Shown: positions 2,183-31,200 of the stretch, piece by piece
How the letters are laid out: each line of letters starts with the position of its first letter
Position numbering within the stretch: the first letter of the stretch is position 1
Source: Mobula hypostoma
Lineage: Eukaryota
Length of the DNA: 64,000 nucleotides
Assembly: GCF_963921235.1 (NCBI RefSeq)
Contig: NC_086097.1
Location: forward strand, 82,028,001-82,092,000
Direction: 5' to 3'
The notes under the pieces: model-generated
Database searches by the model: none
What the model was told of the DNA's origin: nothing
Seen by the model: only the letters and a program-made list of their open reading frames with translations
Program-made: the position numbers and the translations under genes

Positions 2183-2332
2183 GTTTGTGTTCCACAACTT
2201 TATTTTCACCACTAGTGTTCATATTAAGCAAAATGTTTGGGGAAATAAAGTAGTTGATGTGTTAGTGTTGAGTGAGGTGAGAATATTTTTTATATCTACG
2301 GCCTCATTCCTCCAAGATGCAACACAGCGTGT

Positions 2333-2545
2333 CATAGAAAGTCATTCCTGCCTGTGGCCATCAAACTTTACAACTCCTCCCTTGGAGGGTCAGACACCCT
2401 GTGCCGATAGGCTGGTCCTGGATTTATTTCATAATTTACATATTACTATTTAACTATTTATGGTTCTATTACTATTTATTATTTATGGTGCAACTGTAAC
2501 AAAACCAATTTCCCCCTGGGATCAATGAAGTATGATTATGACTAG
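2333..2545 (+). mobile_element. Rex/Babar-type LINE 3' end
   Basis: Near-identical to about 35244-35460, ending in an (ATGACT)-like tail. Confidence 0.8.
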
Positions 2546-2729
2546 TAGATGTTGCACAAAGATGAAGCATGAGATTGCTGTGGAGCAGCAAAGGCAAATG
2601 TCTAATCTGCCTCCACAGCCACCTTGCTAAGGAACTATCAATATGAATTCTGAGATTTCTCCACTTGGCCCAATGTCCTGTCATTTATTATGCAGTCCCA
2701 TTGTCTAGCCAAATCAATAATCTTAATCA

Positions 2730-3320
2730 GGTTTTCATAGCTGTGGGAGATGGTGCGGATAATCTCTCTCTACCTATTAAATGCTTATAATGGCATGCGT
2801 CTCATAGCCTCTGACAGCCGAGTCCAGCTCCTGGCCTTTTCATGTGGCTTAGCTACTGAGCCGCATGAAGCCATTTCTGCTGGCAGGAGAAAGGACAAAG
2901 GTTGGGTTACTGGCACCTTAAAACCAGTCACTTCTGGCAGATGGGGCTTAGAAGCCGTGGTTGGCAGCTCATCTACGAGAATGAAAACTCTGATCTCAAA
3001 CCTTTGCTGCTGTGTGGCTGTACCCTCTCATGGGGAAGGCTTCGGGAGTAAACCCTGAGGGGGTGGAGGGGGGTGGGGAGAGAATCAGAATCCAAATTGG
3101 AGTTCCTAAGACAGTCTTGCATTGAGTTTGGCACCTACTGGCGAGTTCTGTGACGCTGCTGGTGCTGTTCCTTTGGATTCATCAGCTGTATGGAGATGGG
3201 GAGCCTGATGCGTGGGCAACAGCTTGCTTTCCTTATTGCACTGCCCCAAGTTGCGTATCACGTGGATAGCTAGGAAGCAACATCTATGGTCAACCCTCAC
3301 AACTGGAGGGCCTAATAATC
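2730..3320 (+). mobile_element. Non-autonomous RTE-type 5'UTR-derived element containing a candidate HDV-like ribozyme
   Basis: GC-richer island with no meaningful ORF; resembles RTE-clade 5' UTRs from memory; nested pseudoknot pairings at 2816-2889; boundaries approximate. Confidence 0.45.
2816..2889 (+). ncRNA. Candidate HDV-like self-cleaving ribozyme (possibly decayed)
   Basis: P1 AGCCGA(2816-21)/TTAGCT(2849-54), P2 CTCCTG(2828-33)/CAGGAG(2884-89), P3 GCC(2834-36)/GGC(2846-48), pyrimidine-rich L3; the order matches the HDV fold. Confidence 0.4.
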
Positions 3321-4248
3321 ACCTTGTCCTCCTGGTCCACTAGTAGATTCCTATAGCCAAGAACCACACTCTCCTGTCAGTTTTGATGTCATCTTCAAAT
3401 TTGCTAGTAATGACTCCCAAGTTACTTCAATATACACAAGAAGCAAGGAAAACTTTGAGTCTTACAGAATCCCCGAGGCACTAAAATTCACAATCCCCAA
3501 TCCTCTGGCACCAAGTCAATCTCTTGTGCAACCTCCTACTTTCCTCCAGATCTTTGATCTTTTACTCTCAATCAATTTGTCGCGTCTAACTCTTATCAAA
3601 TCATATCAAGCACATCAAATGAGACGTGTAAATGGAAGTAATAGACAGTCAGACATAATCTTTTATCAGAATTGATTAATTGGCTGACCAGTATTGTGAA
3701 GTTTCTTTGATCCTTGTTAACATAAGAGTTCAAGGTGAGGCGTTCAGCTTTATTTGCCATTTCAACAGATCATGTCTGATATTTTAAATCAATTCCACTT
3801 TCTTGCATTGACTTTCCTTAAAAACAATGTCTTTCCATTCATGCTTAATATAATTAGTGATTAACCTGCTGCCATAGCCCTCTTGGCAGAGAATTCCAAA
3901 GTTTCACTTCTCTCTTGTAGAAGAAATAACTTCTCATCTTTGTCCAAATGGTTCTGTGACCTGCGGTTCTAGATATCCCCAGGAATGGAGAATCATAATC
4001 AGTCATGCATTGTAAGAACGTTGCATGTTTCAATGAGATCATCTTTTCATTCTTGCATAGTTTGCTTAGTATTTTATTTGTTTAATAAACCTGCCACCTT
4101 TGGAATCTGGTGAACTCTGCTGCACACCCTTTATTACACCCTTTATTACTGGTACATCCTTGCGTTAGGAGATCTGTTTTTCAAATGCAGTCTACTGAGG
4201 GCGCTAAATGATGAGGCATAATGACGGTTCGAAACAGCGGATTGATTA

Positions 4249-5976
4249 CACTGGACAACAATTTTTTTTCAAAAACGTTGCTTCCTCAGAATTTCATTTT
4301 GCTTATGATAGATCGCTTGAAGCTGAACATAAAAAAACTTCAGATGACTTGGAATTCGAAGAAACAAAAAATTAACTTTTATTGCATATAATGCATTTAA
4401 TTGCATAACAGTGCTGACACTTTGCAATAGTTCAACTTAAGTTAAAAATGTTTTGCTGATGACTTTTGTTTGCACTCAGGTGTCTGAGGCTTCTCACTTA
4501 AATGTCCAACAATAATCAGCCAGCATTGATGGGTTCCAATTGCCCTGATACAGTATCTCCATGACCGCAATGTCCTGCTGAGACCTTTCACCATGTCTGG
4601 CACTGACAGCGCCAAGATTTGCAGGGAAAAAGTCTAAATGGGAACGCAGAAAATGAATCTTTAGTGACATCTTGCACTTCTTGGTTTTGTATGCTTAAAG
4701 CATGTTGTTAATCAGCTGCACGTAGCTTGGTGCTCTGTAGTTGCCAAGAAAATTTTCAACAACTTCCTTGAATGCCTTCCATGTGATTTTCCCCAGTCCC
4801 CTAGAAGTTCAAATTGCCTGTCTTTGATGACCTGTTTGATTTATGGACCTACGAAAATGCCTTCCTTAATTTTGATTTCAGTTATTCTGGGAAACATCTG
4901 TCTCAAATATCGAAATCCTTCAGAGAAATTTTTGGGTCTGGTGACGGCGGATTCTATCCTTGCAGAGTGGAATCCAGTAATTCTGCTTTTGCCTTTGACA
5001 AACCCAAGTCTCTGATCAAGTCATTTTACTCTGAGTTAGTAGAGGAGGTTCATTCAACATAAAGGGTTCAAAACCTGTATCGGTATCAGTATCGTTTTTC
5101 ATTCCTGGCTTGTGCATCATAGCATCTTCATCTGTTTCCTCTAGACTCCGTGTCCTGTTTTTCTAAAACCTGTCCTGCCATGTAGCATACCCCCTGCCTA
5201 AACATGCCCAGCTATGCCTGGACAGGATTGAAAACTTTTTCAGCTTACATTATGGGCAACATTTTAACTGACTCGAATTATGAATTGAAATAACAGATGT
5301 GCGGATTAACAGGGCCTTGTGTGCCTCGTACTTGTCTGTTACTGGTGGCTGATGCAGAAAGTCGATAATGCGGCCCGCTGTCTCCTGTTCAAGGGCACCC
5401 ACCACGTAGTAATAACTGGTGGTATCTGAAACAATTTGCCTGACCTAGAACTGGGCGAGGCTCAAACCAGACCAGGGGTTGAGTGGTCCAGAAGGTTGGC
5501 AGTTTAAGGGAAACTGCATTCTGCAGAGCCGAGTTGTTCATGCTGGGTCCAAATGCTGTTGGACCGTCGGGATCACCAATGTAGTTGTGCTGATATGCAA
5601 CAAGTGAAAGCAACACACTGAGTCAAGCAGGGTCTGGTTGAACTGTTTACTGTTTCAATCCGTGCGCGCTTAAGTGCCCACTCCCAGCATCCCCCGCTCT
5701 TTGCGGGACAGAAGTGACGTCGGCTTCCGGGCCAAGGTCTGTCCCGTACTCAAAGCCCTCTCGGTTGCCACTGGCTGTGGACTCACCCACGACTGCTGGA
5801 GCCGGTTCGCTTGCCACGTGAGCAAGCAGCCACAAATTTCAAATTAATAAATTTTCTATTTAAGAATAAAGAGGTGCGTAGTAGGGAAACTCCATGGTGA
5901 TTTTTCACGATCAGCAGCCCAAAATCATAAGATACATCCAAAAGTATTCAGGAAGCAAAATCTTTGTTGTCCAGTG
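4249..5976 (-). mobile_element. Chapaev3 (CMC superfamily) DNA transposon, internally deleted
   Basis: TIRs CACTGGACAACAA...TTGTTGTCCAGTG; 3-bp TTA duplication (4246-48, 5977-79); minus-strand remnants NDLIRDLGLSKAKAELL, MSLKIHFLRSHLDFFP, HGERSQQDIAVME..YQGNWNPSMLADYCW. Confidence 0.88.
5300..5834 (-). mobile_element. Gypsy LTR retrotransposon 5' fragment: LTR (5834-5580), tRNA-Trp-type PBS (5578-5565) and gag start
   Basis: LTR bounded by TG...CA; PBS TGGTGATCCCGACG; ATG at 5541 gives MNNSALQNAVSLKLPTFWTTQPLVWF, then frameshifted YYYVVGALEQETAGRIIDFL. Confidence 0.8.
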
Positions 5977-7414
5977 TTATTTTTGAAATTGCCTCAGCTT
6001 GGAACTGATAGCCAAAATGAAGGAAGTCATTTTTGCTGTTTAAAATGGATTAAAAGATAGATAATCAAAAATAAGACAGCAATAATTTGGTTGATCAACA
6101 TCTTGATATATACCCTCCCCCCCCCGACCCCTCCCCTGTATTTCTCTGAGAAAAGGAGTAAATTATTGTAGGTTTTATAAGAACAGTAAGATCACATACT
6201 TATCTTGCAAAGCATTTTGGACTGCCCGGAGATGACTTGTGTAAGAGCATACATGAGATAAGAAGATACCTTTTTCATAGGTTCAAAGATGAGGAATATC
6301 TTTGAACCTATGGTTTATAAGTAATGATGTATTGTAAATCTTGAAAAACTATATTTGTCAAATATAATTATACAAGATTTTTCTGTTTCTAGTTTATTAC
6401 TAAAGGAACAATATTTTCATGAGAAATTGTTTTGTGGCACTTCATAGGTTTTAAGGTTTTTAATAATTGAAAATGAAAATAGTGAAACTGTAAATTGGGG
6501 TCTTTAAACTGAAACAGCGACTCTTTCCATAGATGCTACCAGACCTGCAGAAAGCTTCCAGAATTTCCTGTTTTAAATTGTAACCTAATTGGCTTTTTGA
6601 TAATCAGATATTAGAGCTGCGCAGGCTTTCTTCCTGCATGCTGACAATTTGATTGTTTAGGATGTATTCCTGACCAATATATTTGTATTCCTGTCAGCCA
6701 GAATATTACCCCGGTATTCACAAAAGGAATGTCATTATTTCTACCTCTATCCCACCCCATTCAATCTGCCATTCAGTTTATTTGCAAAATGTACTTTTTA
6801 AAGCAGTAGGAGAAGTTTGGAGAAGAGAAACTGTTTAAAGCTCTTCAGTTACAAGACATTTTACTTTTACAAAAATGGAAGTGGAGGGAAGCTTCTGTTA
6901 GAATTGAAAGTTATGTTTTAATTGCTTGAAAGGAATTTGTGTCGTTATGAAAGTCTATGGTCCAAATTGATTGTGGCTGGAACACAGTTTTAAAAAAAAT
7001 ATAACTGAAGAAAACCATGTAGTTTTTTAATGGCTCAGATTTCTTGCTGAGTGTTTCAGTCACAGCCTGCTAAACCCACTTCACCTGTTTGAGGGTTGCT
7101 GAGCACTAAGCTGGTTCCAGAATGTCAGGACTTGAGCAGTATGGAGCTCCAATGATTATATGTGGCAGCTACACCCAGAGGTCTGACAGGCTGGATGCAC
7201 TGTTGTTGTTTCTGGTGAGATCTAACACCAGGAGTCACAGTCTCAGTTTATAGAACAAGATGTTTACAGCTGAACTAGGGAAAAGTTTGCAAAATTAGGG
7301 GTCATGGGCTGAATGTATACTGGCAACATATTTCTTGACACAAGGCATTAAGAGCTATGAGAAGAGAGGGAAATGGTATTGAGGATCAGTCATGAATTCT
7401 TTGAATCGTGGAGC

Positions 7415-8090
7415 AGAATCAGAATCAGGTTTATTATCACTGGCATGTGTCATGAAATTTGTTAACTTAGCAGCAGTTCAATGCAATACATAATATAGAA
7501 GAAAAGCAATTAATGAATTATAACATATGTATATTGAATAGATTAAAAATCATGCAAAATCAGGTTTCTATACCTCCTACCTGATGATAGCAATGAGAAA
7601 AGGGCAGGCCCTGGGTGCTGGGGGTCCTTAATAATGGACACTACTTTTCTGAGACACTGCTCCTTGAAAATATCCTGGGGTACTTTGTAGGCTAGTACCC
7701 AAGATGGAGCTGACTAAATTTACGACCCCCTGTAGCTTCTCTGTGCAGTAGCTGTCTTCCCACCCCTCCCCCCACCCTGTACCAGACAGTGATGCAGCCT
7801 GTCAGAATGCTCTCCACAGTGCATTTATAGAAGTTTTTGAGTGTTTTTGTTGACATACAAAATCTCTTCAAACTCCTAATGAAGTATAGTTGCTGTCTTG
7901 CCTTCTTTGTAGCTGCATCCTGTTGGGTCCAGGTTAGGTCCTCAGAGATCTTGACACCCAGGAACTTGAAGCTGCTCACTCTCTCCACTTCTGATCCCTC
8001 TATGTGGATTGGTATGTGTTACTTCGTCTTGCCCTTCCTGAAGTCCACAATCAACTCTTTCATCTTACTGACGTTGAGTGCAAGGTTGTC
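7415..8090 (-). mobile_element. Rex/Babar (L2-related) LINE 3' fragment
   Basis: ORF 7692-7988 ERVSSFKFLGVKISEDLTW..KKARQQLYFIRSLKRF..FYKCTVESILTGCITVWY; (TCTGAT)n tail at 7415-7428. Confidence 0.85.
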
Positions 8091-9159
8091 ATATGACCTA
8101 GAGCTGCTGTTATTTTTCTACGTTTCTATAAATTGCACTGGCTGCACAGTAAACCGTGCCAGACTTAGTAGCTGTCAAGGACTGAATATTTGTTAATATC
8201 TAACTGACATTTTGCTTTTTATTGTATTAGTTGTCAGTAATACTCAGTGTACTGGGCAGTATATAAATGAATTTAAATTAATTCAGGTTAAATCAAATTT
8301 TTGTAATGTAAGGCATGCTTAACTTTTCTGTTTCTGTTCAAATTATTTAGCTTGTTGTAGTTGAACCAGATCTAGTATTCATAAACTTTGCAAAATTATG
8401 CAGATAAATGTCTGCAGTTCCATGCAAGTCTGCTAGCTTTTGTAGAAAATTGATATATTTTAAATGTAGATTTAAAAAAATCGTGTAGACAATATTTTGT
8501 AACTGGTGTTTGATGATCAAGTTAAAATGAGAATTAATTTTGGGTTCCTATTTTAGATTAATTTGATGTGTCGCTATTAAAGGGTACAGGTAATTATGTA
8601 GTACAGTATCATTTACTTGTTAGCATGTAGGATACATTTGACCAGGTGAAATCTTTAATTTTGCTTTCTTTGCCATTGTTCTTGCATCACATTTTATTAG
8701 TTGTGTTTTTTGGTTGTACTTCAGTTGCATAATAGTCTAATAGAGCTTTCATAACATCTAATTATAAAAGGACCAAAAGTATCTGGTGGAAAGGACGTAC
8801 TGCAGGATGCTTAAAGTTTGGCAGCAGCAGCAGTGACCACAATGTAATTGGAGGGAAAATGATCTTGACCTGTGGGACAACACTGCATTTCTGATAGAAA
8901 TTTGGTTAAATCAAAGTGCCCTTTAAAGGGGCATCTAATTGTCAACCAAATTGATGTGTTGCAGTTGTTTCTGAGCTGGATTGGATGAGGATGATGGATT
9001 TTAATTTCCTTCAACATAATAGTGAACAACAATACTGCGTACGTCTTGAGCACATGTAATAGAATTGTGTAAAGCAAAGATGTTTTCAAATATAATGAAA
9101 TGAAAAGTTTCTGAATGTCAAAAAATACTATAAACAGCAGTAAAACAGTTCTTAAAAAA

Positions 9160-10583
9160 AGAACTAAAATCAATTTTTGTTGTGACCATCCTGTGTCTTT
9201 AAAACTGCATCATTTCTCTTTGGTACACCGTCATGCAGTTTTATAAGAAAATTGGCCAGTAGGTTGTTCCAAGCATCTTGGAGAACTTCCCAAAGTTCTT
9301 CTGCAGACTTCGGCTGTCTTGCTTGCTTCTATCTCTCCAGGTAATCCCAGATAACCTTCATAATGTTGAGATCATGGCTCTGTGGAGGTCATACCATCTG
9401 TTGCAGAACTATTTGTTCTTTTTTTTTTGCTGAAGATAGTTCTTTATGACCATGGCCATGTGTTTGGAGTCATTGTCCTGCTGCAGAATGAAGTTGGGAC
9501 TGATTAGATACCTCCCTGAGGGTATTATATTATTATGTGACAGATGGGAATCTGCTTGTACTTTTTCATTGAGGGTTCCATTAATTCTGGCCAGATCACC
9601 AACTCTGTTTGCAGAACTGTAGCCCCAAACCTGAATGCAACCTTCGCCATGCTTCACTGTTGGTTGCAGAGAGTCACCGTTGTAGCACTCGCCAGCTCTT
9701 CTGCAGACTTCCTGTTTGAGCCACAAATTTTAAATTTTGACTCGTCAGACCAAAGCACTTGATACTATTGTCAGCACCCCAGTCCTTGTGTTTTATGTGT
9801 AGATGAATCTCTTGGCTTTGCTTCCACTTCAGTGGAATAGCTTTTTGGCAGCAACTCGTTCATGAAGACCACTTCTGACTGTAGAGGGGTGTACATGCGT
9901 TCCAGTGGTTTCTGTGAGTTCAGAGCTGATAGCAGTGTTGAACTATTTCCAATTTAAGAGGGACGTCAGTTTGATGTATCTCTTATCTGCTATACTCAGT
10001 TTCTACGGCCATCCGCTGTGTTTCTGGTCCTCTACCTTGCTGGTGTTTCTTCGTGCTTCTTCAGAAGAGCTTGGACAGCACATTTTGTAATTCCTGTCTA
10101 GCTTTGGAAAGACCTTGCTGATCCAGGGTGACAACCTTGTCTTGTTGCTATTTTCCCTTTTGCCATGGTGTAAGAATTGATGACTTGAAGGTTAAACTCA
10201 CATCTGCTACAACCTTGCCTTTTAGTTTGGTTATCCTTCAGCCAGTTTGTTCCTTCTACACCCGTTTCTGTTTCAGTTTGTTTAGTTCATTCAACTCATG
10301 ATGCCATGGATCATTGGCATCTGCTTACCTTGGTTTAATCACTCACTGGACTAGATACCTACAGAGTAATCAAGTTTTTATTTGAAATGTGGTCTATTAT
10401 TTAATATGTTACTTTAATGAAATACAAATTATTCTCTAACGTTTAATTTTTTTTGCAAAATGATTGATAATCTAAAATTTGCTCTTTTCTACTGACACTC
10501 TAATGCAGAATACAGACAAACATCCAAAACAAAATGTATGTAAAAATCAAGGAGGCCTAGCCTAAGACTTCTGCACTGTACTG
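9160..10583 (-). mobile_element. Decayed Tc1-like transposon
   Basis: ORF 9409-9726 PTVKHGEGCIQVWG...FILQQDNDSKH, followed by PPQSHDLNIM..IWDYLER; one TIR (CAGTACAGTGCAGAAGTCTTAGGC on -) ends at 10583. Confidence 0.85.
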
Positions 10584-10589
10584 CAGATA

Positions 10590-10755
10590 GGTTTTTCAAC
10601 AACCCAGCAGTTTCATGCCTACTGTGCTGGGAATAACAATTTCTAATTCCATGTTTGTTTAACTTAATTTAAATTTCTCAGATGCCATGTTCAGATTTGA
10701 TGTTATCACTCTGAATGAACTCTTGACTTCTGATGCCGTAATTTAACCTCTTTTC
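10590..10755 (-). repeat. Old tRNA-derived SINE fragment
   Basis: Similar to + strand copies at about 43495-43705 and 49820-50090 (B-box-like TTCAAATCC, shared body). Confidence 0.4.
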
Positions 10756-12270
10756 TGCCACATCTTAAATTGGTATTCGAAGTCCTTTGCTCTGTGGGCA
10801 ACATCATGCAGTTTAATAAACCAAAAGACATGGCAGTGGAATTAGCCATTCAGCCCATTGGGTCTGCTCCACCAATTGTTTGTGGTTAATCCCTTTCTAT
10901 CTCAATCCCATTCTCCTACCTTCTCCCTGTAACCTTTCATGCCCTGATTTATCAACAATATGTCAACCTCCACCTTAAATACACCCAATGACCTGGCCTC
11001 CACAGCTGCCTGTGGCAACAAATTCCACAGATTAACCACCCTCTGGCTAAAGAAATTCTTCCTGCTAGAGTTCTAAATGGACCTCCCTGCACTGAGGTTG
11101 TGCCCTCTGGTTCTAGACTCCCCCACTATAGGAAACATCCTCTCCACATCTCAACATTCAGTAGGTTTTAATGAAATCCCCCATATTTCTTCTGAATTTC
11201 AGTGAGTATATGATAATTTAATACTGCATTTGCCTTCCTCACCACCGACTCAACCTACAAATTAACCTTGCCTGAGGACAGCAAGTCACTTTGCACCTCG
11301 AATTTTTGAAATTTCTCCCAGCTTAGAAAATTGTCTACACTTTTATTCTTCCTATCAAAGTGCATGACCACACTGTATTCCATTGGTTACTTCCTTGCCC
11401 TTTCTCATGATCAATAAGTCCTCCTTGTAGCCTCCCTGTTTCCTTAACACTACCTGTCCTTCCACCTTTTGTCCTCAAAGCTATCAATTCCATCATCCAA
11501 ATCATTAACATACAACGTAAAGAGAAGCGGTCCCAACACTGACTGTGTGGAACACCACTAGTCACAGTCACAGGCAACCAATCAGAAAAGGCTCCCTTCC
11601 TGCCCGCTCTTTGCCTTCTGCCTAGCAGCCAATGCTCTATCCATGCTGCTCTCTTTCCTGAAATACCATGGGCTCTTATCTTGCTATGCAGCACCTTTTC
11701 AAAGGACTTCTGAAAATCCAAATACACAACATCCACTGATTCTCCTTTGTCTTTCTGCTTGTTAAGAGGGCTGATTGATAAGTTTGTGGCCTAAGGTAGA
11801 AGGAGTCAATTTTAGAAAACCTAGCACACTTATTTTTAACATAGTCTCCTCCTACATTTACACACGTAGTCCAGCAGTCGTGGAGCATACGGATCCCTTC
11901 TTTGTAGAAGTCGGCATCTTGGACCTCCAGAAAGTGGTCCACAGCAGGGGTGATTGATAAGTTTGTGGCCTAAAGTAGAAGGAGATGGGTTATTAACTTC
12001 AAATTTTCTGCATAACCACTCGGAGTTGAATTGCACCTGCATTAATGAGAGCTGTATAACTCATCTCCTTCTACCTTAGGCCACGAACTTATCAATCACC
12101 CCTGCTGTGGATCACTTCCGGAGGTCCAAGATGCCAGATGCCGACTTCTACAAAGAAGGGATCCGTATGCTCCATGACCGTTGGACTAAATGTGTAAATG
12201 TAGAAGGGGCAACCCACATAAAATTTGCTGGTGAAACAGCAGACCAGGCAGCATCTATAGGAAGAGGTAC

Positions 12271-12306
12271 AGTCGACGTTTCGGGCCGAGACCCTTCGTC
12301 AGGACT
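12271..12306 (-). ncRNA. Minimal type-I hammerhead ribozyme motif (Penelope-associated), intact core
   Basis: Minus strand reads AGTC-CTGACGA-AGGGTCTCGGCCC-GAAA-CGTC-GACT: stem I AGTC/GACT, CUGANGA and GAAA cores, stem II GGGT/GCCC, GUC cleavage triplet. Confidence 0.85.
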
Positions 12307-12952
12307 AACTGAAAGAAGAGATAGTAAGAGATTTGAGAGGGGGAAGGGGAGATCCGAAATGTTAGGAGAAGACAGGAGATGGAGGGATGGAGCTAAGAGC
12401 TGGAAAGTTGATTGGCAAAAGGGATACGAGGCTGGAGAAGGGAGAGGATCATGGGACAGGAGGCCTAGGGAGAAAGAAGAGGGGTGGAGAAGCCAAGAGG
12501 ATGGGCAAGGAGTTATAGTGAGAGGGACAGAGGGAGGAAAAAAGAGAAGGGGGAAAAAGAAAAGAAAAAATTAGTAATAAATAAGGGATGGGGTACGAAG
12601 GGGAGGTGGGGGTGTTCAGCGAAACTGTCGTCCAGCCTGCGTCGGATCTCGTTGCATTGAGAGCACCGGATGCAGTACATCACCCCAGCCAACTCACAGG
12701 TGAAGTGTCGCCTCACCTGGAAGGACTGTCTGGGGCCCTGAATGGTGGTAAGGGAGGAAGTGTAAGGGCATGTGTAGCACTTGTTCCGCTTACAAGGATA
12801 AGAACCGGGAGGGAGATCGGTGGGGAGGGATGGGGGGACGAATGGACAAGGGAGTCGCGTAGGGAATGATCCCTGCAGAAAGCAGAAGGAGGGGGAGGGA
12901 AAGATGTGCTTAGTGGTGGGATTCCGTTGGAGGTGGCGGAAGTTATGGAGAA

Positions 12953-14074
12953 TTATATGTTGGACGCGGAGGCTGGTGGGGTGGTAGTGACAAGGGGAAC
13001 CCTATTCCTAGTGGGGTGGCTGGAGGATGGGGTGAGAGCAGATGTGCGTGAAATGGGAGAGATACGTTTGAGAGCAGAGTTGATGGTGGAGGAAGGGAAG
13101 CCCCTTTCTTTAAAAAAGAACAACTCCTTTGTCCTGGAATGAAAAGCCTCATCCTGAGAGCAGATGCGGTGGAGATGGAGGAATTGCGAGAAGGGGATGG
13201 CATTTTTGCAAGAGACAGGGTGGGAAGAGGAATAGTCCAGGTAGCTGTGAGAGTCCGTAGGCTTATAGTAGACATCAGTAGATAAGCTGTCTCCAGAGAT
13301 AGAGACAGAAAGATCAAGAAAGGGGAGGGAGGTGTCGGAAATGGACCAGGTAATCTTGTGGGCAGGGTGAAAGTTGGAGGCAAAGTTAATAAAGTCAATG
13401 AGCTCAGCATACGTGCAGGAAGCAGCGCCAATGCAGTGGTCGATGTAGCGAAGGAAAAGTGGGGGACAGATACCAGTATAGGTTTGGAACATAGATTGTT
13501 CCACAAAGCCAACAAAAAGGCAGGCATTGCTGGGACCCATATGAGTGCCCATGGCTACATCTTTAGTTTGGAGGAAGTGGGAGGAGCCAAAGGAGAAATT
13601 ATAAAGAGTAAGGACTAATTCCGCTAGACGGAGCAGAGTGGTGGTAGAGGGGAACTGGTTAGGTCTGGAATCCAAAAAGAAGTGGAGAGCTTTGAGACCT
13701 TCCTGGTGGGGGATGGAGGTATATAGGGACTGGACATCCATGGTGAAAATAAAGCGGTGGGGGCCAGGGAACTTAAAATCATCGAAAAAATTCAAAGCAT
13801 GAGAAGTGTCACGAACATAGGTGGGAAGGGATTGAACAAGGGGGGATAAAACAGTGTCGAGGTATACAGAAATGAGTTTGGTGGAGCAGGAGCAAGCTGA
13901 GACAATGGGTCTGCCTGGACAGGCAGGTTTGTGGATCTTGGGTAGGAGGTAGAAACGGAAAGTGCGAGATGTGGGAACTATTAAGGTTGGTAGCAGTGGA
14001 TGAGAGATCCCCTGAGCTGATAAAGTTGGTGATGGTGTGGGAGACAATTCCCTGGTGCTCCTTAGTGGGGTCAT
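12953..14074 (-). pseudogene. Penelope-like reverse transcriptase, partial and decayed
   Basis: 373-aa ORF with PLE RT motifs; the catalytic YIDD is mutated to YIDH. Confidence 0.85.
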
Positions 14075-14107
14075 GATCGAGAGATAAATAGAGGAGGTAT
14101 CCGCGAG

Positions 14108-14845
14108 TTGTCGCTGTGCCTCGAGGTAGAGGTCACTATCAACTCTGCTCTCAAACGCATCTCTCCCATTTCACGCACATCTGCTCTCACCCTATCCTCC
14201 CGCCACCCCACTAGGAATAGGGTCCCCCTTGTCCTCACCTACCACCCCACCAGCCTCCGGGTCCAACATATTCTCTGTAACTTCCACCACCTCCAACAGG
14301 ATCCCACCACTAAGCACGTCATTCCCTCTCTCCCCCCCCCCCCACCCCCAGCTTTCCGCAGGGATCACTCCCTGCGCGACTCCCTTGTCCATTCGTCCCC
14401 CTCATCCCTTTCCACCGATGTCCCTTCCGGCACTTCCCCTTGTAAGCGGAACAAGTGCTACACCTGCCCTTACACTTCCTCCCTCACCACCATTCAGGGT
14501 CCCAGACAGTCCTTCCAGGTGAGGCGACACTTCACCTGTGAGTCGGCTGGGGTGATATACTGCGTCTGGTGCTCCCGATGCGGCCTTCTATATATTGGCG
14601 AGACCCGACCCAGACTGGGAGACCGTTTCGCTGAACACCTACGCTCTGTCCACCAAAGAAGGCAGGATCTCCCAGCGGCCACACATTTTAATTCCACGTC
14701 CCATTCCCATTCTGACATGTCTATCCACGGCCGCCTCTACTGTCAAGATGAAGCCACACTCAGGTTGGAGGAGCAACACCTTATATTCCGTCTGGGTAGC
14801 CTCCAACCTGATGGCATGAACATTGACTTCTCTAACTTCTGTTAA
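14108..14845 (+). pseudogene. Penelope-like C-terminal linker and GIY-YIG endonuclease, 5'-truncated
   Basis: 245-aa ORF with the Cys cluster PCKRNKCYTCPY, GVIYC...LYIGET, RFAEH and the C-terminal LGSLQPDGMN. Confidence 0.85.
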
Positions 14846-15148
14846 TGCCCCACCTCCCCTTCCTACCCCATCATCCCTTATTTATTTATTTCTCACCATT
14901 TTTTCTCTCTTCTTTTCTCCCTCTGTTCCTCTCACGATAACTCCTTGCCCATCTTCTGGGCTTCCTCCTCCCCCCTTCCCCCCCTAGGCTTCCCATCCCC
15001 CGATCCTCTCCCTGCTCCAGCCTCATATCCCTTTTGCCAATCAACTTTCCAGCTCTTAGCTCCATCCCTCCCCTTCCTGTCTTCTATCAGTTTGGATCTC
15101 CTCCTCCCCCTCCCACTTTTAAATCTCTTACTAGCTCTTCCTTCAGTT

Positions 15149-15184
15149 AGTCCTGACGAAGGGTCTCGGCCTGAAACGTTAACT
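15149..15184 (+). ncRNA. Minimal hammerhead ribozyme motif, mutated copy
   Basis: AGTC-CTGACGA-AGGGTCTCGGCCT-GAAA-CGTT-AACT; cores intact, with CpG-type changes at the cleavage site and stem I. Confidence 0.7.
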
Positions 15185-15986
15185 GTACCTCTTCCAATAG
15201 ATGCTGTCTGGCCTGCTGCATTCACCAGCATTTTTTACGTGTTGCTTTAATTTCCAGCATCTGCAGATTTCCTTGTGTTTGTGTTTTTAAATGTAGGAGG
15301 GACTATGTTGAACAATGTGCTCGGTTTTCTGAAATTGGCTCCTTCTCCCTAGGCCACGAACATATCAATCACCCCTCATATTTCCTCAAAAAATTTCAAC
15401 AAATTTGTTAGGCAAGGTTTCCCAAAGAAACCATGCTGACTTTGGCCTATTTTATCATGTGCCTCCAAGAACACCAAAACCTCATCCTTAACAATAGACT
15501 CCCAACATCTTCCTAACCACTAGCCTATAATTTCTTTTATTCTGCCTCTGTTCCTTGAACAGCGAAGTGACGTTTACAATTTTCCAGTCTTCTGGGACCA
15601 TCCAACAGCTAGTGATTCTTGAAAAGTTATTACTAATGCCTCCACTTCAGCTACCTCTTTTGGAACCTTGGGGTGTAGTCCTTCTGGTCCAGGGGTGACT
15701 TATCTACCTTCAGACCTTCCAGCCTCCCATGATTCTTCCTAGTAATACCAACTGCTCGCACTCCTGTCCTCTGACACCCAGACTTCAGGCATACTGATAA
15801 TGTTTTCCACGGTGAAGATTGAAGTGAAAGACTTGTTAAGTCCGTCTGCCATTTCCTTGTTCTCTATTGCTACCTCTCCAGTGTTATTTTCCAGTGGTCC
15901 GATGTTCACCCTTGCCTCTCTTTAACTCTTTATATATCTGAAAAAAAAACCTCTGGTATCCTTTTTGATATTATTGGGCTTGCTTA

Positions 15987-17120
15987 TAAGGCATTTGACA
16001 AGGTTCCACACAATAGGCTTATTCAGAAAGTCAGAAGGCATGGGATCCAGGGAAGTTTGGCCAGGTGGATTCAGAATTGGCTTGCCTGCAGAAGGCAGAG
16101 GGTCGTGGTGGAGGGAGTACATTTGGATTAGAGGGTTGTGACAAGTGGTGTCCCACAAGGATCGGTTCTGGGACCTCTACTTTTTGTGATTTTTATTAAC
16201 GACCTGGATGTGGTGGGTTGGCAAGTTTGCAGATGACACAAAGGTTGGTGGTGTTGTAGATAGTGTAGAGGATTGTTGAAGATTGCAGAGAGACATTGAT
16301 AGGATGCAGAAGTGGGCTGAGAAGTGGCAGATGGAGTTCAACCCGGAGAAGTGTGAGGTGGTACACTTTGGAAGGACAAACTCCAAGGCAGAGTACAAAG
16401 TACAGACATTTATAAATGGCAGGATACTTGGTAGTATGGAGGAGCAGAGGGATCTGGGGGTGCATGTCCACAGTTCCCTGAAAGTTGCCTCACAGGTAGA
16501 TAGGGTAGTTAAGAAAGCTTAGCTTTCATAAGTCGAGGGATAGAGTTTAAGAGTCGCGAGGTAATGATGCAGCTCTATAAAACTGGTTAGGCCACACTTG
16601 GAGTACTGTGTCCAGTTCTGGTCACCTCACTATAGGAAGGATGTGGAAGCATTGGAAAGGGTACAGAGGAGATTTACCAGGATGCTGCCTGGTTTAGAGT
16701 ATGGAGTATGATCAGAGTTTAAGGGAGCTAGGGCTTTACTCTTTGGAGAGAAGGAGGATGAGAGGAGACATGATAGAGGTGTACAAGATATTAAGAGGAA
16801 TAGATAGAGTGGATAGCCAGCGCCTCTTCCCCAGGGCACCACTGCTCAATACAAGAGGATATGGCTTTAAGGTAAGGGGTGGGAAGTTCAAGGGGGATAT
16901 TAGAGGAAGGTGTTTTACTCAGAGAGTGGTTGGTACGTGGAATGCACTGCCTGAGTCAGTGGTGGATGCAGATACACTAGTGAAATTTAAGAGACTACTA
17001 GACAGGTATATGGAGGAATTTAGGGTGGGGGGGGTTATATGAGAGTCAGGGTTTAAGGGTCGGCACAACATTATGGGCTGAAGGGCCTGTACTGTGCTGT
17101 ACTATTCTATGTTCTATATT
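15987..17120 (+). mobile_element. CR1 LINE 3' portion
   Basis: [26 protein letters not shown] through to the 3' UTR with TTCTATG tail; near-identical to 30127-30852 (-). Confidence 0.9.
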
Positions 17121-17124
17121 CTTA

Positions 17125-18221
17125 TGGAATTGGTTTTGTGGCAAAGTTTGTGGATGATACAAAGATAGGTGGAGGGGTAGATAGTGCTGAAGAAGGAATG
17201 CAGCAGGAGTTAGACAGATTGGAAGAATGGGCAAAAAAGTGGCAGATGGAATACAGTTCTGGGAAATGTATGATGATGTATTTAGGTAAAAGGAACAATA
17301 GTGCGGACTATTGTCCAAATGGGGAGAAAGTTCAAACATCAGAGGTGCAGAGGGACTTCGTCGTCGTGCAAGACTCACAGAAGATTAATTTACAGGTTGT
17401 TTGTGGTAAAGAAGGCAAATACAATGTTGGCATGTATTTCAACAGGAATAGAATATAATAGCAAGGAGATAATGCTGAGTCTTTATAAGGCAGTAGTCAA
17501 GCCGCACTTGGAGTATTGTCAACAGTTTTGGGGCCCCATATCTCAGAAAGGCTGTGTTGTCATTGGGGAGTGTCTAGAGCAGTGGTCCCCAGCCTCCGGG
17601 TCGCGGACCGATACATTGCCGTGAAGGATGCAGCGGTACAGCGGTAGCCAGAACGCACCCAGCACATCTTTAAGAAAAAAGCCGAAATATTCAAGCTAAT
17701 TAATTAGGTACCGCCTGGCACATAAATGTCGGCCCAGATCAGAAACGATTGCCAATTGCGTCGCCTCTGATCTGGGCCAACATTTACGTGCCGGGCAGCA
17801 CCTAATTACTTAGCTTGTTTATTTCAGCTTTTTTCTTAAAGATGTGCTGGGTGCGTTCTGGCTACCGCTGCACCCCTGCATGCTTTGTGGCATGTATCAG
17901 TCCGCGGCCTGGAGGTTGGGGACCACTAGTCTAGAGGAGGTTCACAAGGATGATTCCCTTTAGAACAGAGGTAAGAAGGAATTTTTTGGCCAGAGAGTAG
18001 TAAAACTGTGGAATGCTGTGCCACAGATTCGCGGTGGAGGCCAAGTCTGTGTGTATATTTAAGGCAGAAGTTGATAGTTTCCTGATTGGTCAGGGCATCA
18101 AAGGATATGGTGAGAAGGTGGGTTTGTGGGGTTGAATGAGATCTGGGATCCGCCATGATGGAATGACGGAGCAGACTTGATGGGTTGAATGGCCTAATTC
18201 TGCTCCTGTATGTTATGGTTG
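17125..18221 (+). mobile_element. CR1 LINE 3' portion (second subfamily), interrupted by a hAT MITE
   Basis: AKFVDDTKIGGG..EEWAKKWQMEYS, LYKAVVKPHLEYC; 3' UTR ends near 18220. Confidence 0.85.
17580..17928. mobile_element. hAT-Charlie-type palindromic MITE
   Basis: 8-bp TSD GTCTAGAG (17572-79, 17929-36); TIR CAGTGGTCCCCA[G/A]CCTCC; near-complete internal palindrome. Confidence 0.93.
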
Positions 18222-19119
18222 TACCCTGATATTTATCTTTTCCCTCTTTGTGGCTTTTTCAGTTGCCTTGTTGGTTGTTAAAAGTTTCCCAATTCTCTAA
18301 CTTGGTATGATACATACAGCACTGAGATTGAGACCCAAAAAAAACAAAGAATCAAACATTAGGACTATATGAGAAAGCGAATTTGAGTTGCATGATGAAC
18401 TGTGCTTTTTAATGAATGACTTCAGTTTGAGTGACTATAAGGCCTACTATTTGTTAATTTATATTTTTAAGCTTTATCCTCGTACTTTTATTACAGATGA
18501 TCATTTAAGCATTAGTATTGTTTTCTTTACTGTTCTTTCCTTGGGAAGGCTCAATTTTTAAATTGTTTTATTGTTATCACATGTACAATGAGGTATAATG
18601 GAAATTATACCTCATTCCATCCATATATACGGATCATTTCATCGCATCACATCAGTGTGTTAGGTGGTACAAGGGAAAAGCAAAAGCAGATTGCAGAGTA
18701 AAGTGTTACACTAATAGAGTGCAGGGCAGGTAGACAATAATATGCGAGAACGTAATGAGGTAAATTGTGAGGTCAAGAGTCCATCTTATTGTAGGAGACG
18801 ATTCAGCAGTCTTGTCACAGCTGGATAGACGTTCTTGAGCCTTGTGATACATGAATTCAAGACTTTATATGTTCTGAAGAGAGATGTTTTTTGACTTAAA
18901 CCAAGTGATCCTTATGTGAGCCATTACAGACTTAATCACCTATGTGGTTTGAGCCATGGGATTTTAATGTACTTCTAAAATAACAAAATCTGACTAATAA
19001 AATTTAATGTGTTTGGTTTGATAATCGAATTATCTTGAAATTCTCCATGACTTTTTGTTGCTTGAGGGAATGAAGAGTTCAATAATAATTTTGTACTTCA
19101 CTGAAACTTTACTCAATAG

Positions 19120-19243
19120 GCGTCCCGTGCCCAAATCTTGGATAAAGCTACAGAATATATTCAGTATATGAGGCGGAAAAACCACACACATCAACAGGAT
19201 ATTGATGACCTGAAGCGACAGAACACCTTGCTTGAGCAGCAAG
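19120..19243 (+). CDS. MAX: MAX coding exon, loop, helix 2 and leucine zipper (equivalent to human exon 4)
   Basis: caatag|GCG...CAAG|gtaaga; 124 nt; translates [41 protein letters not shown]. Confidence 0.97.
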
Positions 19244-22583: not shown

Positions 22584-22771
22584 TACGTGCATTGGAAAAG
22601 GCACGGGCAGCTGCTCAGCTACAAGCAAACTTTTCATCCTCTGACAGCAGTTTGTACACCAACCCCAAGGGCAGTGCAGTTTCTGCCTTTGATGGGGGCT
22701 CTGACTCAACTTCAGAGTCAGAAACTGAAGAACCCCAGACCAGAAAGAAACTGCGAATGGAGCCAAGCTGA
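22584..22771 (+). CDS. MAX: MAX terminal coding exon (zipper end, acidic region, NLS)
   Basis: tttctttTACAG|TA CGT...; phase 1 matches the previous exon; (V)[64 protein letters not shown] at 22769-71. Confidence 0.97.
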
Positions 22772-27249: not shown

Positions 27250-27378
27250 CACAAACAAGAGAAAATCTGCAGATACTGGGAATCCAAGCAACACACACAA
27301 AATGCTGGAGGAACTCAGCAGGCCAGGCAGCTTCAATGGATGAGTACAGTCGACCTTTTGGGCCGAGACCTTTCAGCA
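27250..27378 (-). mobile_element. Short Penelope terminal fragment with a degenerate hammerhead
   Basis: Reverse complement of the 3' terminus seen at 15150-15285. Confidence 0.7.
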
Positions 27379-27506
27379 TTTTGTGCATGTCGCTTAAGTT
27401 TATGTGCTCTTGTTTTTAGCACCTCTCCATGAAAAAAAGACCATGTGCTTTCATCAAAGTTGCTGGTGAACGCAGCAGGCCAGGCAGCATCTCTAGGAAG
27501 AGGTAC

Positions 27507-27542
27507 AGTCGACGTTTCGGGCCGAGACTCTTCGTCAGGACT
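27507..27542 (-). ncRNA. Minimal hammerhead ribozyme motif
   Basis: Minus strand reads AGTC-CTGACGA-AGAGTCTCGGCCC-GAAA-CGTC-GACT; one stem II mismatch. Confidence 0.8.
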
Positions 27543-28284
27543 AACTGAAGGAAGAGCTAGTAAGAGATTTAAAAGTCGGAGGGAGAGGGGAGATCCAAAA
27601 TGATAGAAGAAGATCCCTCCTGGGGGAGGGATGGAGCCAAGAGCTGGACAGGTGATTGGCAAAAGGGATATGAGAGGATCATGAGACAGGAGGCCCAGGG
27701 ACAAGGAAAAGGGGTGGGGGGGGAAATACCCAGAGGATGGGCAAGGGGTATAGTCAGAGGGACAGAGGGAGAAAAAGGAGAGAGAGAAAAAGAAGAAAAA
27801 TGTGTGTATATAAACAAATAATGGATGGGGTACGAGGGGGAGGTGGGGCATTAGCAGAAGTTTGAGAAGTCAATGCTCATGCCATCAGGTTGGAGGCTAC
27901 CCCCAGACGGAATATAAGGTGTTGTTCCTCCAACCTGAGAGTGGCTTCATCTCGACAGTAGAGGAGGCCGCGGATAGACATATCAGAATGGGAATGGGAT
28001 GTGGAATTAAATGTGTGGCCACTGGGAGATCCTGCTTTCTCTGGTGGACAGAGCGTAGGTGTTCAGCAAAACGATCTCCCAGCCTGCTGATGTGATATAC
28101 TGTGTCTGGTGCTCCCGGTGTGGCCTTCTATATACTGGTGAAACCCGATGCAGGCTGGGCGACAGTTTCCTTTTTGCCAATCAACTGTCCAGCCTTTGGC
28201 TCCATCCCTCCCCCTCCTGTCTTCTCCTATCATTTTGGATCTCCCCTCCCACTTTTAAATCTCTTACTAGCTCTTCCTTCAGTG

Positions 28285-28320
28285 AGTCCTGACGAAGGGT
28301 CTCTGCCTGAAACATCAACT
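28285..28320 (+). ncRNA. Minimal hammerhead ribozyme motif, mutated copy
   Basis: AGTC-CTGACGA-AGGGTCTCTGCCT-GAAA-CATC-AACT. Confidence 0.6.
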
Positions 28321-28559
28321 GTACCTCTTCCTAGAGATGCTGCCTGGCCTGCTGCGTTCACCAGCAACTTTGATGTGTGTTGTTGAATTTCCAGCATCTG
28401 CAGAATTCCTCGTGTTTGTGCCATGTGCTTTCACTCTGTTTGTGTTCCTCATGATCGAGCTACCCTCAATTAGGGCACCCCTTAATCTCTTTAGGAGCGT
28501 GTTGGTTCATCAATATGTTAAGGAAAATTATTTTTACTGATAAATCATGAGATAATTTA

Positions 28560-29519: not shown

Positions 29520-31200
29520 TCTCCTTGCAACGCAGGCTCCCAAGTCCAAGCAACATCCTGGTAAATCTTTTTAGCTTAATGTGCCCAAAACTGTATACAA
29601 AGCTCTAAGTGTGGCCTCGCCAATAACTTAATTGGCTCCAACATAACTTACCACCTCCTATACTCAGTCCCTTGACTGATGAAAGCCAGCACTCATGACA
29701 CGTTCCTAACCACCCTATGTACCCATGACATCAATTTCATCAAACTTTGTACTTGCACACCTAGGTTCCTGTGTTTCATAACACAATCCAGGGCCCTACC
29801 TTTCACTGTATAAATCCTAGCCTGGTTTAGTCTGAAATACGAAACGTCATCTTTATCTGGATCAAAAACCTTTTGCCAGTCCTCAGCCCACATGCCTAGC
29901 TGATTGATCCCTCCGTAGTTTTTCATAACCTATACCATCTACAACTTATTTTAGTATCATCTCCTAATTTTCTAACCATACCTTGTACATTCACAACAAA
30001 ATCCCTTATATAAATTACAAACAACAAAGGTCCCAGCACCAATCGATGTGAATCACTAGACACAGGTCTCCAGTCAAAAAACAACTCTTGACAACCACCC
30101 TCTGTTCCTGTCATTGAGTCAATTACAGAACATAGAACAGAGAATAGTACAGAACAGTACAGGCCCTTCAGCCCACAATGTTGTGCTGACCCTCAAACCC
30201 TGCCTCCCGTGTAAGCCCCCACCTTAAATTCCTCCATATACCTGTCTAGAAGTCTCTTAAACTTCACTAGTGTATCTGCCTCCACCACTGACTCAGGCAG
30301 TGCATTCCACACACCAACTACTCTCTGAGTAAAAAACCTTCCTCTAATATCCCCCTTGAACTTCCCACCCCTTACCTTAAAGCCATGTCCTCTTGTATTG
30401 AGCAGTGGTGCCCTGGGGAAGAGGCGCTGGCTATCCACTCTATCTATTCCTCTTATTATCTTCTACACCTCAATCATGTCTCCTCTCATCTTCCTTCTCT
30501 CCAAAGAGTAAAGCCCTAGCTCCCTTAATCTCTGATCATAATGCATACTCTCTAAACTAGGCAGCATCCTGGTAATTCTCCTCTGTACCCTTTCCAATGC
30601 TTCCACATCCGTCCTATAGTGAGGCGACCAGAACTGGACACAGTACTCCAAGTGTAGCCTAACCAGAGTTTTATAGAGCTGCATCATTGCATCGCGACTC
30701 TTAAACTCTATCCCTCGACTTATGAAAACTAACAACCCATAAGCTTTATTAACTACCCTATCCACCTGTGAGGCAACTTTCAGGGATCTGTGGACATGTA
30801 CCCTCAGATCTCTCTGCTCCTCCACACTACCAAGAATCCTGCCATTTACTTTGTGAATTGAATTATGAATCCAATCCACTAATATCCTGGATCCCATGCA
30901 ATCTAACCGTCCAGACTAGCTTGCCATGAGGAACCCTGCTAGGCCTGCTAAAGGCCATACACTGCCCTACCTTCATCTAGCCTCTTGGTTATCTCCTTGA
31001 AGAACTCCAACAGCTTTCTCAGACATGAGTTCCAATGTACAAAGCTATGCTGACTGTACTAAATCAGACTGTCTCTCCTAATGTTGGTAGATTTACTCAC
31101 CACTGATGTCCAATTCACCAGCCTGCAGTTTCCAAATTAGTTTTGTTTAAAACCAAAGTACCACATTAGGAGCTCTTCGGGTCTCCAGAACTTAATCTAT
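29520..31200 (-). mobile_element. Older CR1 fragment (29520-30125 and 30855-31200) interrupted by a younger CR1 3' copy (30127-30852)
   Basis: ORFs 29923-30114 ([19 protein letters not shown]), 30463-30897 and 30193-30438; the younger tail (ACATAGA) lies at about 30127-30140. Confidence 0.82.

What the first reader, a model, noticed from the sequence alone, without database searches (positions are those of the whole stretch)
12210..15287. Inverted two-arm Penelope-like element with a hammerhead ribozyme in each arm, inside a MAX intron
Seen: a minus-strand arm (RT) and a plus-strand arm (GIY-YIG) are joined near 14134 with their 3' ends facing outward. This gives about 1 kb of inverted repeat, and each arm ends in AGTC-CTGACGA-stemII-GAAA-CGTY-RACT (12271-12306 -, 15149-15184 +). 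TAAATGTAGRAGGG is duplicated on both flanks (12195-208, 15288-301). Established: GIY-YIG Penelope-like elements carry minimal type-I hammerheads with almost no stem III that are proposed to cleave as dimers. Inference: this is a ribozyme-processed retroelement family; the GAAACGUC segment contains the palindrome ACGU, suited to dimeric folding.
Basis: partly seen in the sequence, partly recalled or inferred. Interest (0 to 1): 0.75.

Follow-up and report, generated by a model that had tools for sequence, protein, structure and literature searches.

The report
Dead head-to-head Penelope retrotransposon in ray
This is an old, broken insertion of a known kind of jumping gene (a Neptune-type Penelope-like element) in an intron of a ray's MAX gene, and its mirror-image layout and tiny self-cutting RNA motif are the ordinary hallmarks of that kind.

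Summary
12210-15287 is one insertion made of two 5'-truncated copies of the same Neptune-clade Penelope-like element (PLE), head to head. It has a 14-15 nt target duplication inside a mariner-derived miniature element in a MAX intron, and a tail about 40 nt longer on one arm. A second insertion (27454-28420) has the same layout. Inverted truncated copies, one-sided tails, TSDs and minimal hammerheads on opposite strands are all published PLE traits. Corrections: the arms are not an RT arm and an endonuclease arm; only the left hammerhead is intact (1 of 5 copies in the window); the two motifs lie on opposite strands, so they cannot form a dimer in one transcript; and all four arms were copied straight through the cleavage site, so their templates were uncut there. 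Cleavage was not testable. Most likely both nicked target strands primed reverse transcription, at two start sites about 40 nt apart (inferred). The scan found similar head-to-head PLE stubs before in other shark-like genomes.

The parts
12210..14134 (-). Left arm: 5'-truncated PLE copy (1.9 kb). RT core and thumb, frameshift, linker CX4CXXC, endonuclease broken by a 15-nt deletion (removes the YIG) and a ~208-nt deletion, 3' UTR, hammerhead, short end
12953..14134 (-). RT reading frame remnant; starts about 240 residues into an 820-aa relative (55% identical); motif C reads YIDH where relatives have two aspartates
12271..12306 (-). Intact minimal type I hammerhead: stem I AGUC/GACU, CUGACGA, bulged A, stem II GGGU/GCCC, GAAA-C-GUC; predicted cut after 12275; antisense to MAX
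   Evidence: (stem I pair probabilities 0.89-0.96, stem II 0.89-0.99)
14134..15287 (+). Right arm: shorter 5'-truncated copy of the same element (1.15 kb). End of thumb, linker CKRNKCYTC, GVIY-CxxCxxC-LYIG endonuclease to stop at 14845, 3' UTR, hammerhead, long end
15149..15184 (+). Decayed hammerhead: three CpG changes (stem II G-U, triplet GUU, C-A mismatch at the first stem I pair); sense with MAX
15246..15287 (+). One-sided tail, about 38-42 nt beyond the point where the left arm ends
   Evidence: tail described in PMC8557442 and PMC11167929
14134..14135 (.). Head-to-head junction with 1-2 nt shared by both arms
   Evidence: upstream residues of the family from P0121
12195..12209 (+). Left copy of the target-site duplication (14 nt, or 15 with G12209)
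   Evidence: other runs show one more G at this MITE site (table 4)
15288..15301 (+). Right copy of the target-site duplication
11765..15378 (.). Palindromic mariner-derived miniature element (about 530 nt without the insert) that received the insertion; its mirror arm 11848-11926 holds the target sequence once
   Evidence: SETMAR transposase end E=0.006, Mos1 E=0.45
27454..28420 (.). Second, independent head-to-head insertion of the same family (B): arms meet at 28086-28087, TSD CCATGTGCTTTCA 13 of 13, tail about 45-47 nt on the right arm, both hammerheads damaged
27250..27374 (-). Single 125-nt 3' fragment (C) with the long end and a broken hammerhead core; no TSD found
2183..19119 (+). MAX intron that holds the insertion

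Best explanation
A dead insertion of an abundant, old elasmobranch Neptune-clade PLE. Shown: one single-ORF element (RT - CX4CXXC linker - GIY-YIG) is present twice, head to head, both copies 5'-truncated, with RNA 3' ends outward, different 3' end points, and a 14-15 nt TSD. Inferred: the endonuclease nicked both target strands 14-15 nt apart, and each 3'-OH primed reverse transcription on element RNA uncut at its 3' hammerhead. One strand began at the distal start site and one about 40 nt upstream, which gives the one-sided tail. The two incomplete cDNAs were then joined head to head through 1-2 nt of microhomology. The hammerhead is the family's ordinary pLTR motif, carried along; in the active source element it probably trims or circularises tandem transcripts as a dimer or with protein help. 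It has no role at this locus, and its copies decay like the DNA around them.
For: Same layout at two independent sites with different junctions, each with its own TSD. Contigs in 4 of 4 runs join position 13089 to 14138, so RT and endonuclease are one continuous family sequence (10, 10, 12 and 4 contigs). 139,146-253,699 contigs were laid per run in X1, X4 and X13. Named closest proteins are from Mobula and Hypanus (73-87%) and other sharks and skates (60-70%); all 11 form one 100/100 branch with the query, split into sharks, skates and stingrays/devil rays. Neptune: the linker motif is present, and the RT is 50% identical over 98% to P0016, which by my eye count matches the printed Neptune1_Ap row at 90 of 94 residues. 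The anole PLE protein cleaves and extends both strands and starts at two sites that bracket the tail (PMC11167929). In A the short-ended arm reaches 1,045 nt further 5' than the tailed arm; in B the tailed arm reaches about 63 nt further. Two independent primings allow either order. Decay: 7 of 8 differences among the four arm hammerheads fall on CpG positions; the 36-nt motif varies at 8 of 144 cells against 42 of 672 in flanking sequence.
Against: The priming model rests on two insertions and on in vitro work with a different clade (Poseidon). Tails here (38-47 nt) and TSDs (13-15 nt) are a little longer than those in the passages I read (30-40 nt; 8-10 nt). The published start sites lie in an AC-rich stem-loop; here the sense RNA is GU-rich at both ends, and the tail hairpin is no more stable than shuffles (z -0.5 to 0.0). 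The 13 core letters show 0 differences in 52 cells against 6% background, a weak, post hoc hint of constraint that disappears if fragment C is counted. A later central deletion could have produced the arm asymmetry in A. The tree holds no named Poseidon or Nematis references.
Confidence: 0.6

Rival explanations
1. Fold-back or self-priming: one cDNA is primed at the target and then folds back and copies itself, or an antisense transcript self-primes, giving the mirror arm. Later deletion trims the centre.
For: Proposed for head-to-head PLE structures in PMC3846280 (Discussion). B fits directly (tailed arm longer, about 63-nt loop). Arms group by insertion at 5 of 7 informative sites, and the other 2 are CpG transitions, as expected if one arm copies the other (also expected from one RNA or one source element).
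Against: In A the arm without the tail is the longer one by 1,045 nt, which a simple fold-back from the tailed arm cannot give, and a fold-back from the short-ended arm cannot add the tail. No palindrome at either junction, only 1-2 shared nt.
Confidence: 0.25
2. One reading: ribozyme cleavage, as a dimer through ACGU, processes the transposition intermediate and is needed for the element to move; the two arms supply the two ribozymes.
For: The left motif matches the min-HHR in every core position. Dimeric constructs of another min-HHR cut weakly in vitro (PMC4209133). The motif is kept across PLE clades.
Against: The arms are on opposite strands and mask each other. 4 of 4 arms cross the cleavage site unbroken, and fragment C starts about 22 nt upstream of it. 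Ribozyme mutants of the anole PLE insert normally, and no RNA-seq ends were found at the site. The lowest-energy predicted homodimer pairs through stem II and GUCGAC rather than the active ACGU register. 1 of 5 window copies is intact.
Confidence: 0.1
3. Two separate insertions or a later rearrangement placed two family copies head to head by chance.
For: The family is very abundant, and the A arms differ from each other as much as from B arms (27 of 217 against 25-27 of 211-215).
Against: One TSD encloses both arms in A and in B, and removing the insert restores the MITE (217 of 258 aligned positions identical to its mirror arm). At 12 of 12 alignable sites where the right arm departs from at least 95% of X1 depth, the left arm has the family letter, so those differences are private decay.
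Confidence: 0.04

Closest known systems
Neptune-clade EN+ Penelope-like elements (Neptune1_Ap, Neptune1_Nv; PMC8557442, passages and supplement parts 54 and 57 of 59)
   Same: RT followed by a C-terminal GIY-YIG endonuclease with two cysteines inside the core; CX2-5CXXC linker; 5' truncation; inverted truncated copy; one-sided tail; hammerhead in the pLTR region.
   Different: An elasmobranch lineage about 50-55% identical in RT to the invertebrate relatives. This copy has no full-length ORF and no direct pLTR. Tail and TSD are slightly longer than the values I read.
Minimal type I hammerheads of metazoan PLEs (PMC4209133, parts 1-2 of 4 read)
   Same: No helix III loop, palindromic 15.2-16.2, unpaired base before stem II, G10.1-C11.1 pair, 4-bp stem I; pairs on opposite strands were reported there.
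   Different: Stem II is 4 bp with a tetraloop here, against 7-8 bp in the Schistosoma motifs. No cartilaginous fish was named in the parts I read.
Poseidon PAc of Anolis (PMC11167929, parts 1-2 of 4 and passages)
   Same: Hammerhead shortly upstream of two reverse-transcription start sites that define the tail; templates uncut.
   Different: Poseidon lacks the linker Zn-finger; its start sites are described as AC-rich, while the sense RNA here is GU-rich; no protein test is possible on this dead copy.
Adineta vaga Penelope insertions with inverted pLTRs (PMC3846280, passages and Discussion)
   Same: Head-to-head arms, one tail, one TSD around the whole insert, microhomology deletions.
   Different: TSD 8-10 bp there; palindromes at the junction there, not here.
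LINE-1 twin priming (recalled, from no call)
   Same: Both target strands prime, and the cDNAs join by microhomology inside one TSD.
   Different: In twin priming the second primer lands inside the RNA, so the 3' end is present once; here it is present on both arms.

Membership tests
EN+ Penelope-like element | PLE-type RT | tested here: met
   RVT_1 E=1.3e-4, below cut-off; 55% to an 820-aa RT + GIY-YIG protein; 414 longer relatives
EN+ Penelope-like element | C-terminal GIY-YIG endonuclease with cysteines between GIY and YIG (CCHH) | tested here: met
   GVIYCVWCSRCGLLYIGET..RFAEH in the right arm; Pfam GIY-YIG E=1.6e-3; definition
EN+ Penelope-like element | RT and endonuclease in one ORF | tested here: met
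   Continuous in family contigs of 4 of 4 runs and in P0001; in this copy split by frameshift and truncation
EN+ Penelope-like element | Inverted 5'-truncated copy, one-sided tail, TSD | tested here: met
   Insertions A and B; described
EN+ Penelope-like element | Direct pLTR / partial tandem before a full ORF | tested here: inconclusive
   Both window insertions are 5'-truncated, so the feature cannot appear; no full-length family DNA was obtained
Neptune clade | CX2-5CXXC linker between RT and endonuclease, with long spacer | tested here: met
   CKRNKCYTC; spacing resembles the Neptune rows and not the short Nematis rows of Fig. S2, judged by eye
Neptune clade | RT phylogeny with named clade references | tested here: inconclusive
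   Tree of 31 relatives chosen by me from 240 listed has only a Neptune1_Ap-like row (P0016) and no Poseidon or Nematis rows
Minimal type I hammerhead | CUGANGA, GAAA, UH, stems I and II, palindromic 15.2-16.2 | tested here: met
   Left arm only, 1 of 5 window copies
Minimal type I hammerhead | Core conserved above background across the family | tested here: inconclusive
   0 of 52 core cells against 42 of 672 flank cells in four arms; whole motif 8 of 144. One search showed only 40 of 405 differences, none in the motif
Minimal type I hammerhead | Self-cleavage after the UH triplet | not testable with these tools
   Needs in vitro assay
Non-LTR retrozyme | Non-coding tandem repeats with a hammerhead in each unit | tested here: not met
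   Copies are inverted and carry RT/endonuclease sequence; definition in bioRxiv 10.64898/2026.07.22.740005

The most novel reading that the evidence does not exclude
These head-to-head insertions are the direct footprint of a dimeric PLE complex that primes reverse transcription from both nicked target strands at two fixed RNA start sites. This would explain in one step the inverted copy, the one-sided tail and the TSD, which the literature still lists as unexplained. Insertion A (tail on the shorter arm) is the kind of copy that separates this from fold-back models, and a family this abundant in rays would allow a genome-wide test. I found no explicit statement of this model in searches or in the passages read, but the pieces are in PMC11167929 and most subscription papers are not searchable.
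Probability: 0.45. Interest if true: 0.4.

Novelty: new member of a known kind. Interest (0 to 1): 0.17.

Why it matters
As a locus it matters little: a dead copy in an intron, with every trait already described for PLEs. Two modest uses remain. The family is very abundant in rays and appears inherited across sharks, skates and rays, yet searches returned no paper devoted to it (one chondrichthyan genome is covered in a 2026 preprint), so it is worth curating. And its many TSD-bounded head-to-head copies could settle how PLE inverted structures and tails arise. The 0.86-kb inverted repeat would also form double-stranded RNA in MAX pre-mRNA, a possible editing substrate; nothing here tests that.

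Tried and rejected
No whole genome is held for this window, so no genome-wide scan. Rfam found no hammerhead family; minimal motifs probably fall outside its models. A 20-nt family pattern gave 27 metagenome loci and 1 viral locus, and 0 of 28 align to the element. The endonuclease query found no viral-contig relative. No solved PLE structure by sequence (one hit, E=0.29, unrelated). Run X15 is only guessed to be RNA, so no expression claim is made. Tail hairpin as start signal: not above shuffles. Hammerhead fold z-scores are weak (-1.18 left, +0.33 right), and the left MFE extends stem I with pairs that use core bases. Arms copied from two different subfamilies: a few endonuclease-region letters looked crossed between A and B, but the count gave 5 sites grouping arms by insertion, 2 CpG sites against, 0 for the crossed pattern, in 234 columns; rejected. 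A regex for the linker motif in relatives was mis-specified and matched 0 of 20; the motif was read from the alignment instead. Earlier-findings look-ups by sequence and by place gave nothing. Supplements of the bioRxiv preprint were not seen and may list chondrichthyan PLE families.
Full report
Observation. A minus-strand arm (12210-14134) and a plus-strand arm (14134-15287) meet head to head. Their shared part aligns over 858 columns with 89 mismatches and 275 gap columns. The minus arm has a 405-codon RT frame (RVT_1 E=1.3e-4) and the plus arm a GIY-YIG frame (E=1.6e-3), both below Pfam's curated cut-offs. A 14-nt repeat with one mismatch flanks the whole (12195-12208, 15288-15301); it scores 12, while 300 random position pairs reached at most 9. 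MAX exons lie at 2075-2182, 19120-19243 and 22584-22771; the first matches solved Max at E=2e-19. The insert is in the intron between the first two.

Anatomy. The arms are two truncated copies of one element, not an RT arm and an endonuclease arm. The left arm continues past the RT into the linker and an endonuclease that has lost 15 nt (the YIG) and about 208 nt. Contigs in 4 of 4 public runs join 13089 to 14138, so RT and endonuclease are continuous in the family. The RT remnant starts about 240 residues into an 820-aa relative and reads YIDH at motif C, so the copy is dead. The right arm ends about 38-42 nt beyond the point where the left arm ends. The target is a palindromic mariner-derived miniature element (SETMAR transposase end, E=0.006). 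Its mirror arm holds the target once, and removing the insert restores it (217 of 258 aligned positions). Other runs show one more G at this site (46,649 of 46,837 depth in X1), so the TSD was 14 or 15 nt. A second insertion, B (27454-28420), has the same layout with a different junction, a perfect 13-nt TSD and a 45-47 nt tail. A 125-nt single fragment, C, lies at 27250-27374.

Family. Named relatives of the RT come from Mobula and Hypanus (73-87%), Amblyraja, Leucoraja, Rhincodon, Stegostoma and Chiloscyllium (60-70%). In a tree of the query plus 31 proteins that I chose from the 240 listed, all 11 elasmobranch rows and the query form one branch (100/100), split into sharks, skates and stingrays/devil rays. 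This suggests inheritance from an early elasmobranch and a myliobatiform host (inference). Of 29.4 million contigs read in run X1, 253,699 were laid on the stretch; X4 gave 224,451 of 34.2 million and X13 139,146 of 24.6 million. That is no copy number, but it shows a very abundant repeat. The linker CKRNKCYTC meets the CX2-5CXXC motif that marks Neptune and Nematis (PMC8557442, passages). The RT is 50% identical to P0016, which matches the printed Neptune1_Ap row at 90 of 94 residues by my eye count. The tree has no Poseidon or Nematis reference, so Neptune rests on motif and similarity.

Hammerhead. The left motif is a complete minimal type I hammerhead as defined in PMC4209133 (parts 1-2 of 4 read): 4-bp stem I, CUGACGA, an unpaired A, stem II, GAAA-C-GUC and no loop 3. 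It is the only strict descriptor hit in the window; 200 shuffles gave a mean of 0.0. That paper also reports pairs of such motifs 100-700 bp apart on opposite strands, and only low cleavage of dimers. The other four window copies are damaged; 7 of 8 differences among the four arm copies are at CpG positions. The motif varies at 8 of 144 cells against 42 of 672 in flanks; the core alone at 0 of 52, a weak hint that fragment C contradicts. Three points go against 'ribozyme-processed'. All four arms pass through the cleavage site and end 57-107 nt beyond it, so the templates were uncut there or re-ligated. The two motifs are on opposite strands and would pair with each other's antisense in any read-through transcript (-120.9 kcal/mol); MAX pre-mRNA carries only the damaged one in sense. 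And in the anole PLE the ribozyme is protein-assisted and not needed for insertion in vitro (PMC11167929, parts 1-2 of 4).

Mechanism. Shown: geometry, TSD, two 3' end points, 1-2 nt junction overlaps. From the literature: the anole protein cleaves and extends both strands, is predicted to be a dimer, and starts at two sites that bracket the tail. Inferred: both nicked strands primed cDNA synthesis here, and the two cDNAs were joined. The tail is on the arm with the shorter 5' reach in A (by 1,045 nt) and on the longer one in B (by about 63 nt), which independent priming allows and simple fold-back does not, unless A lost its centre later. Arms group by insertion at 5 of 7 informative sites, the other 2 being CpG transitions (234 columns). 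This fits one RNA, one source element or fold-back alike, and gives no sign of two subfamilies. The rival self-priming model is in PMC3846280 (Discussion). I put priming from both strands at 0.6 and fold-back at 0.25.

Comparison and verdict. Inverted 5'-truncated copies, a 30-40 bp one-sided tail and pLTR hammerheads are stated as typical of PLEs in PMC8557442, and inverted pLTRs inside 8-10 bp TSDs in PMC3846280. A 2026 preprint (part 1 of 5 and passages; supplements not seen) finds Neptune and Poseidon widespread in vertebrates and includes one chondrichthyan genome. Three earlier notes of this scan describe similar head-to-head PLE stubs in other shark-like genomes; my reading was on record before I saw them, and they are not independent support. 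The finding is a new member of a known kind. Interest 0.17; the best remaining use is as material for a genome-wide test of how PLE inverted structures form.

Noticed in passing
window 27454-28420 and 27250-27374: Second head-to-head insertion of the same family with a perfect 13-nt TSD, and a single 3' fragment 80 nt upstream of it; both lie downstream of the MAX stop codon.
   Followed up: yes
window 14609-14640 (family coordinates on the right arm): Three break points cluster in about 30 nt of the endonuclease region: the ~208-nt deletion of A-left, the ~396-nt deletion of B-right and the 5' end of B-left. It may be a pause or jump site of the RT, or chance.
   Followed up: partly
window 11765-12209 and 15288-15378: Palindromic mariner-derived miniature element with four copies of its terminal repeat and the transposase C-terminal end on each arm; abundant in other runs.
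   Followed up: partly
window 11335-11790 and about 15400-16200: LINE-like RT fragments flank the miniature element (CR1/L2-like by recalled motifs, not tested); similar pieces recur at 36450-37208 and 45853-46023.
   Followed up: no
window 16413-17122 vs 30127-30848; 17617-17892: A 93-95% identical inverted pair 13 kb apart, and a 132-nt-arm hairpin with a 12-nt loop.
   Followed up: no
P0125, P0137, P0147: Database proteins named as host genes of rays and skates (chitinase domain-containing protein 1, divergent protein kinase domain 1C, nicotinamide riboside kinase 1) carry this PLE RT; probably gene-model artefacts or exonised copies.
   Followed up: no
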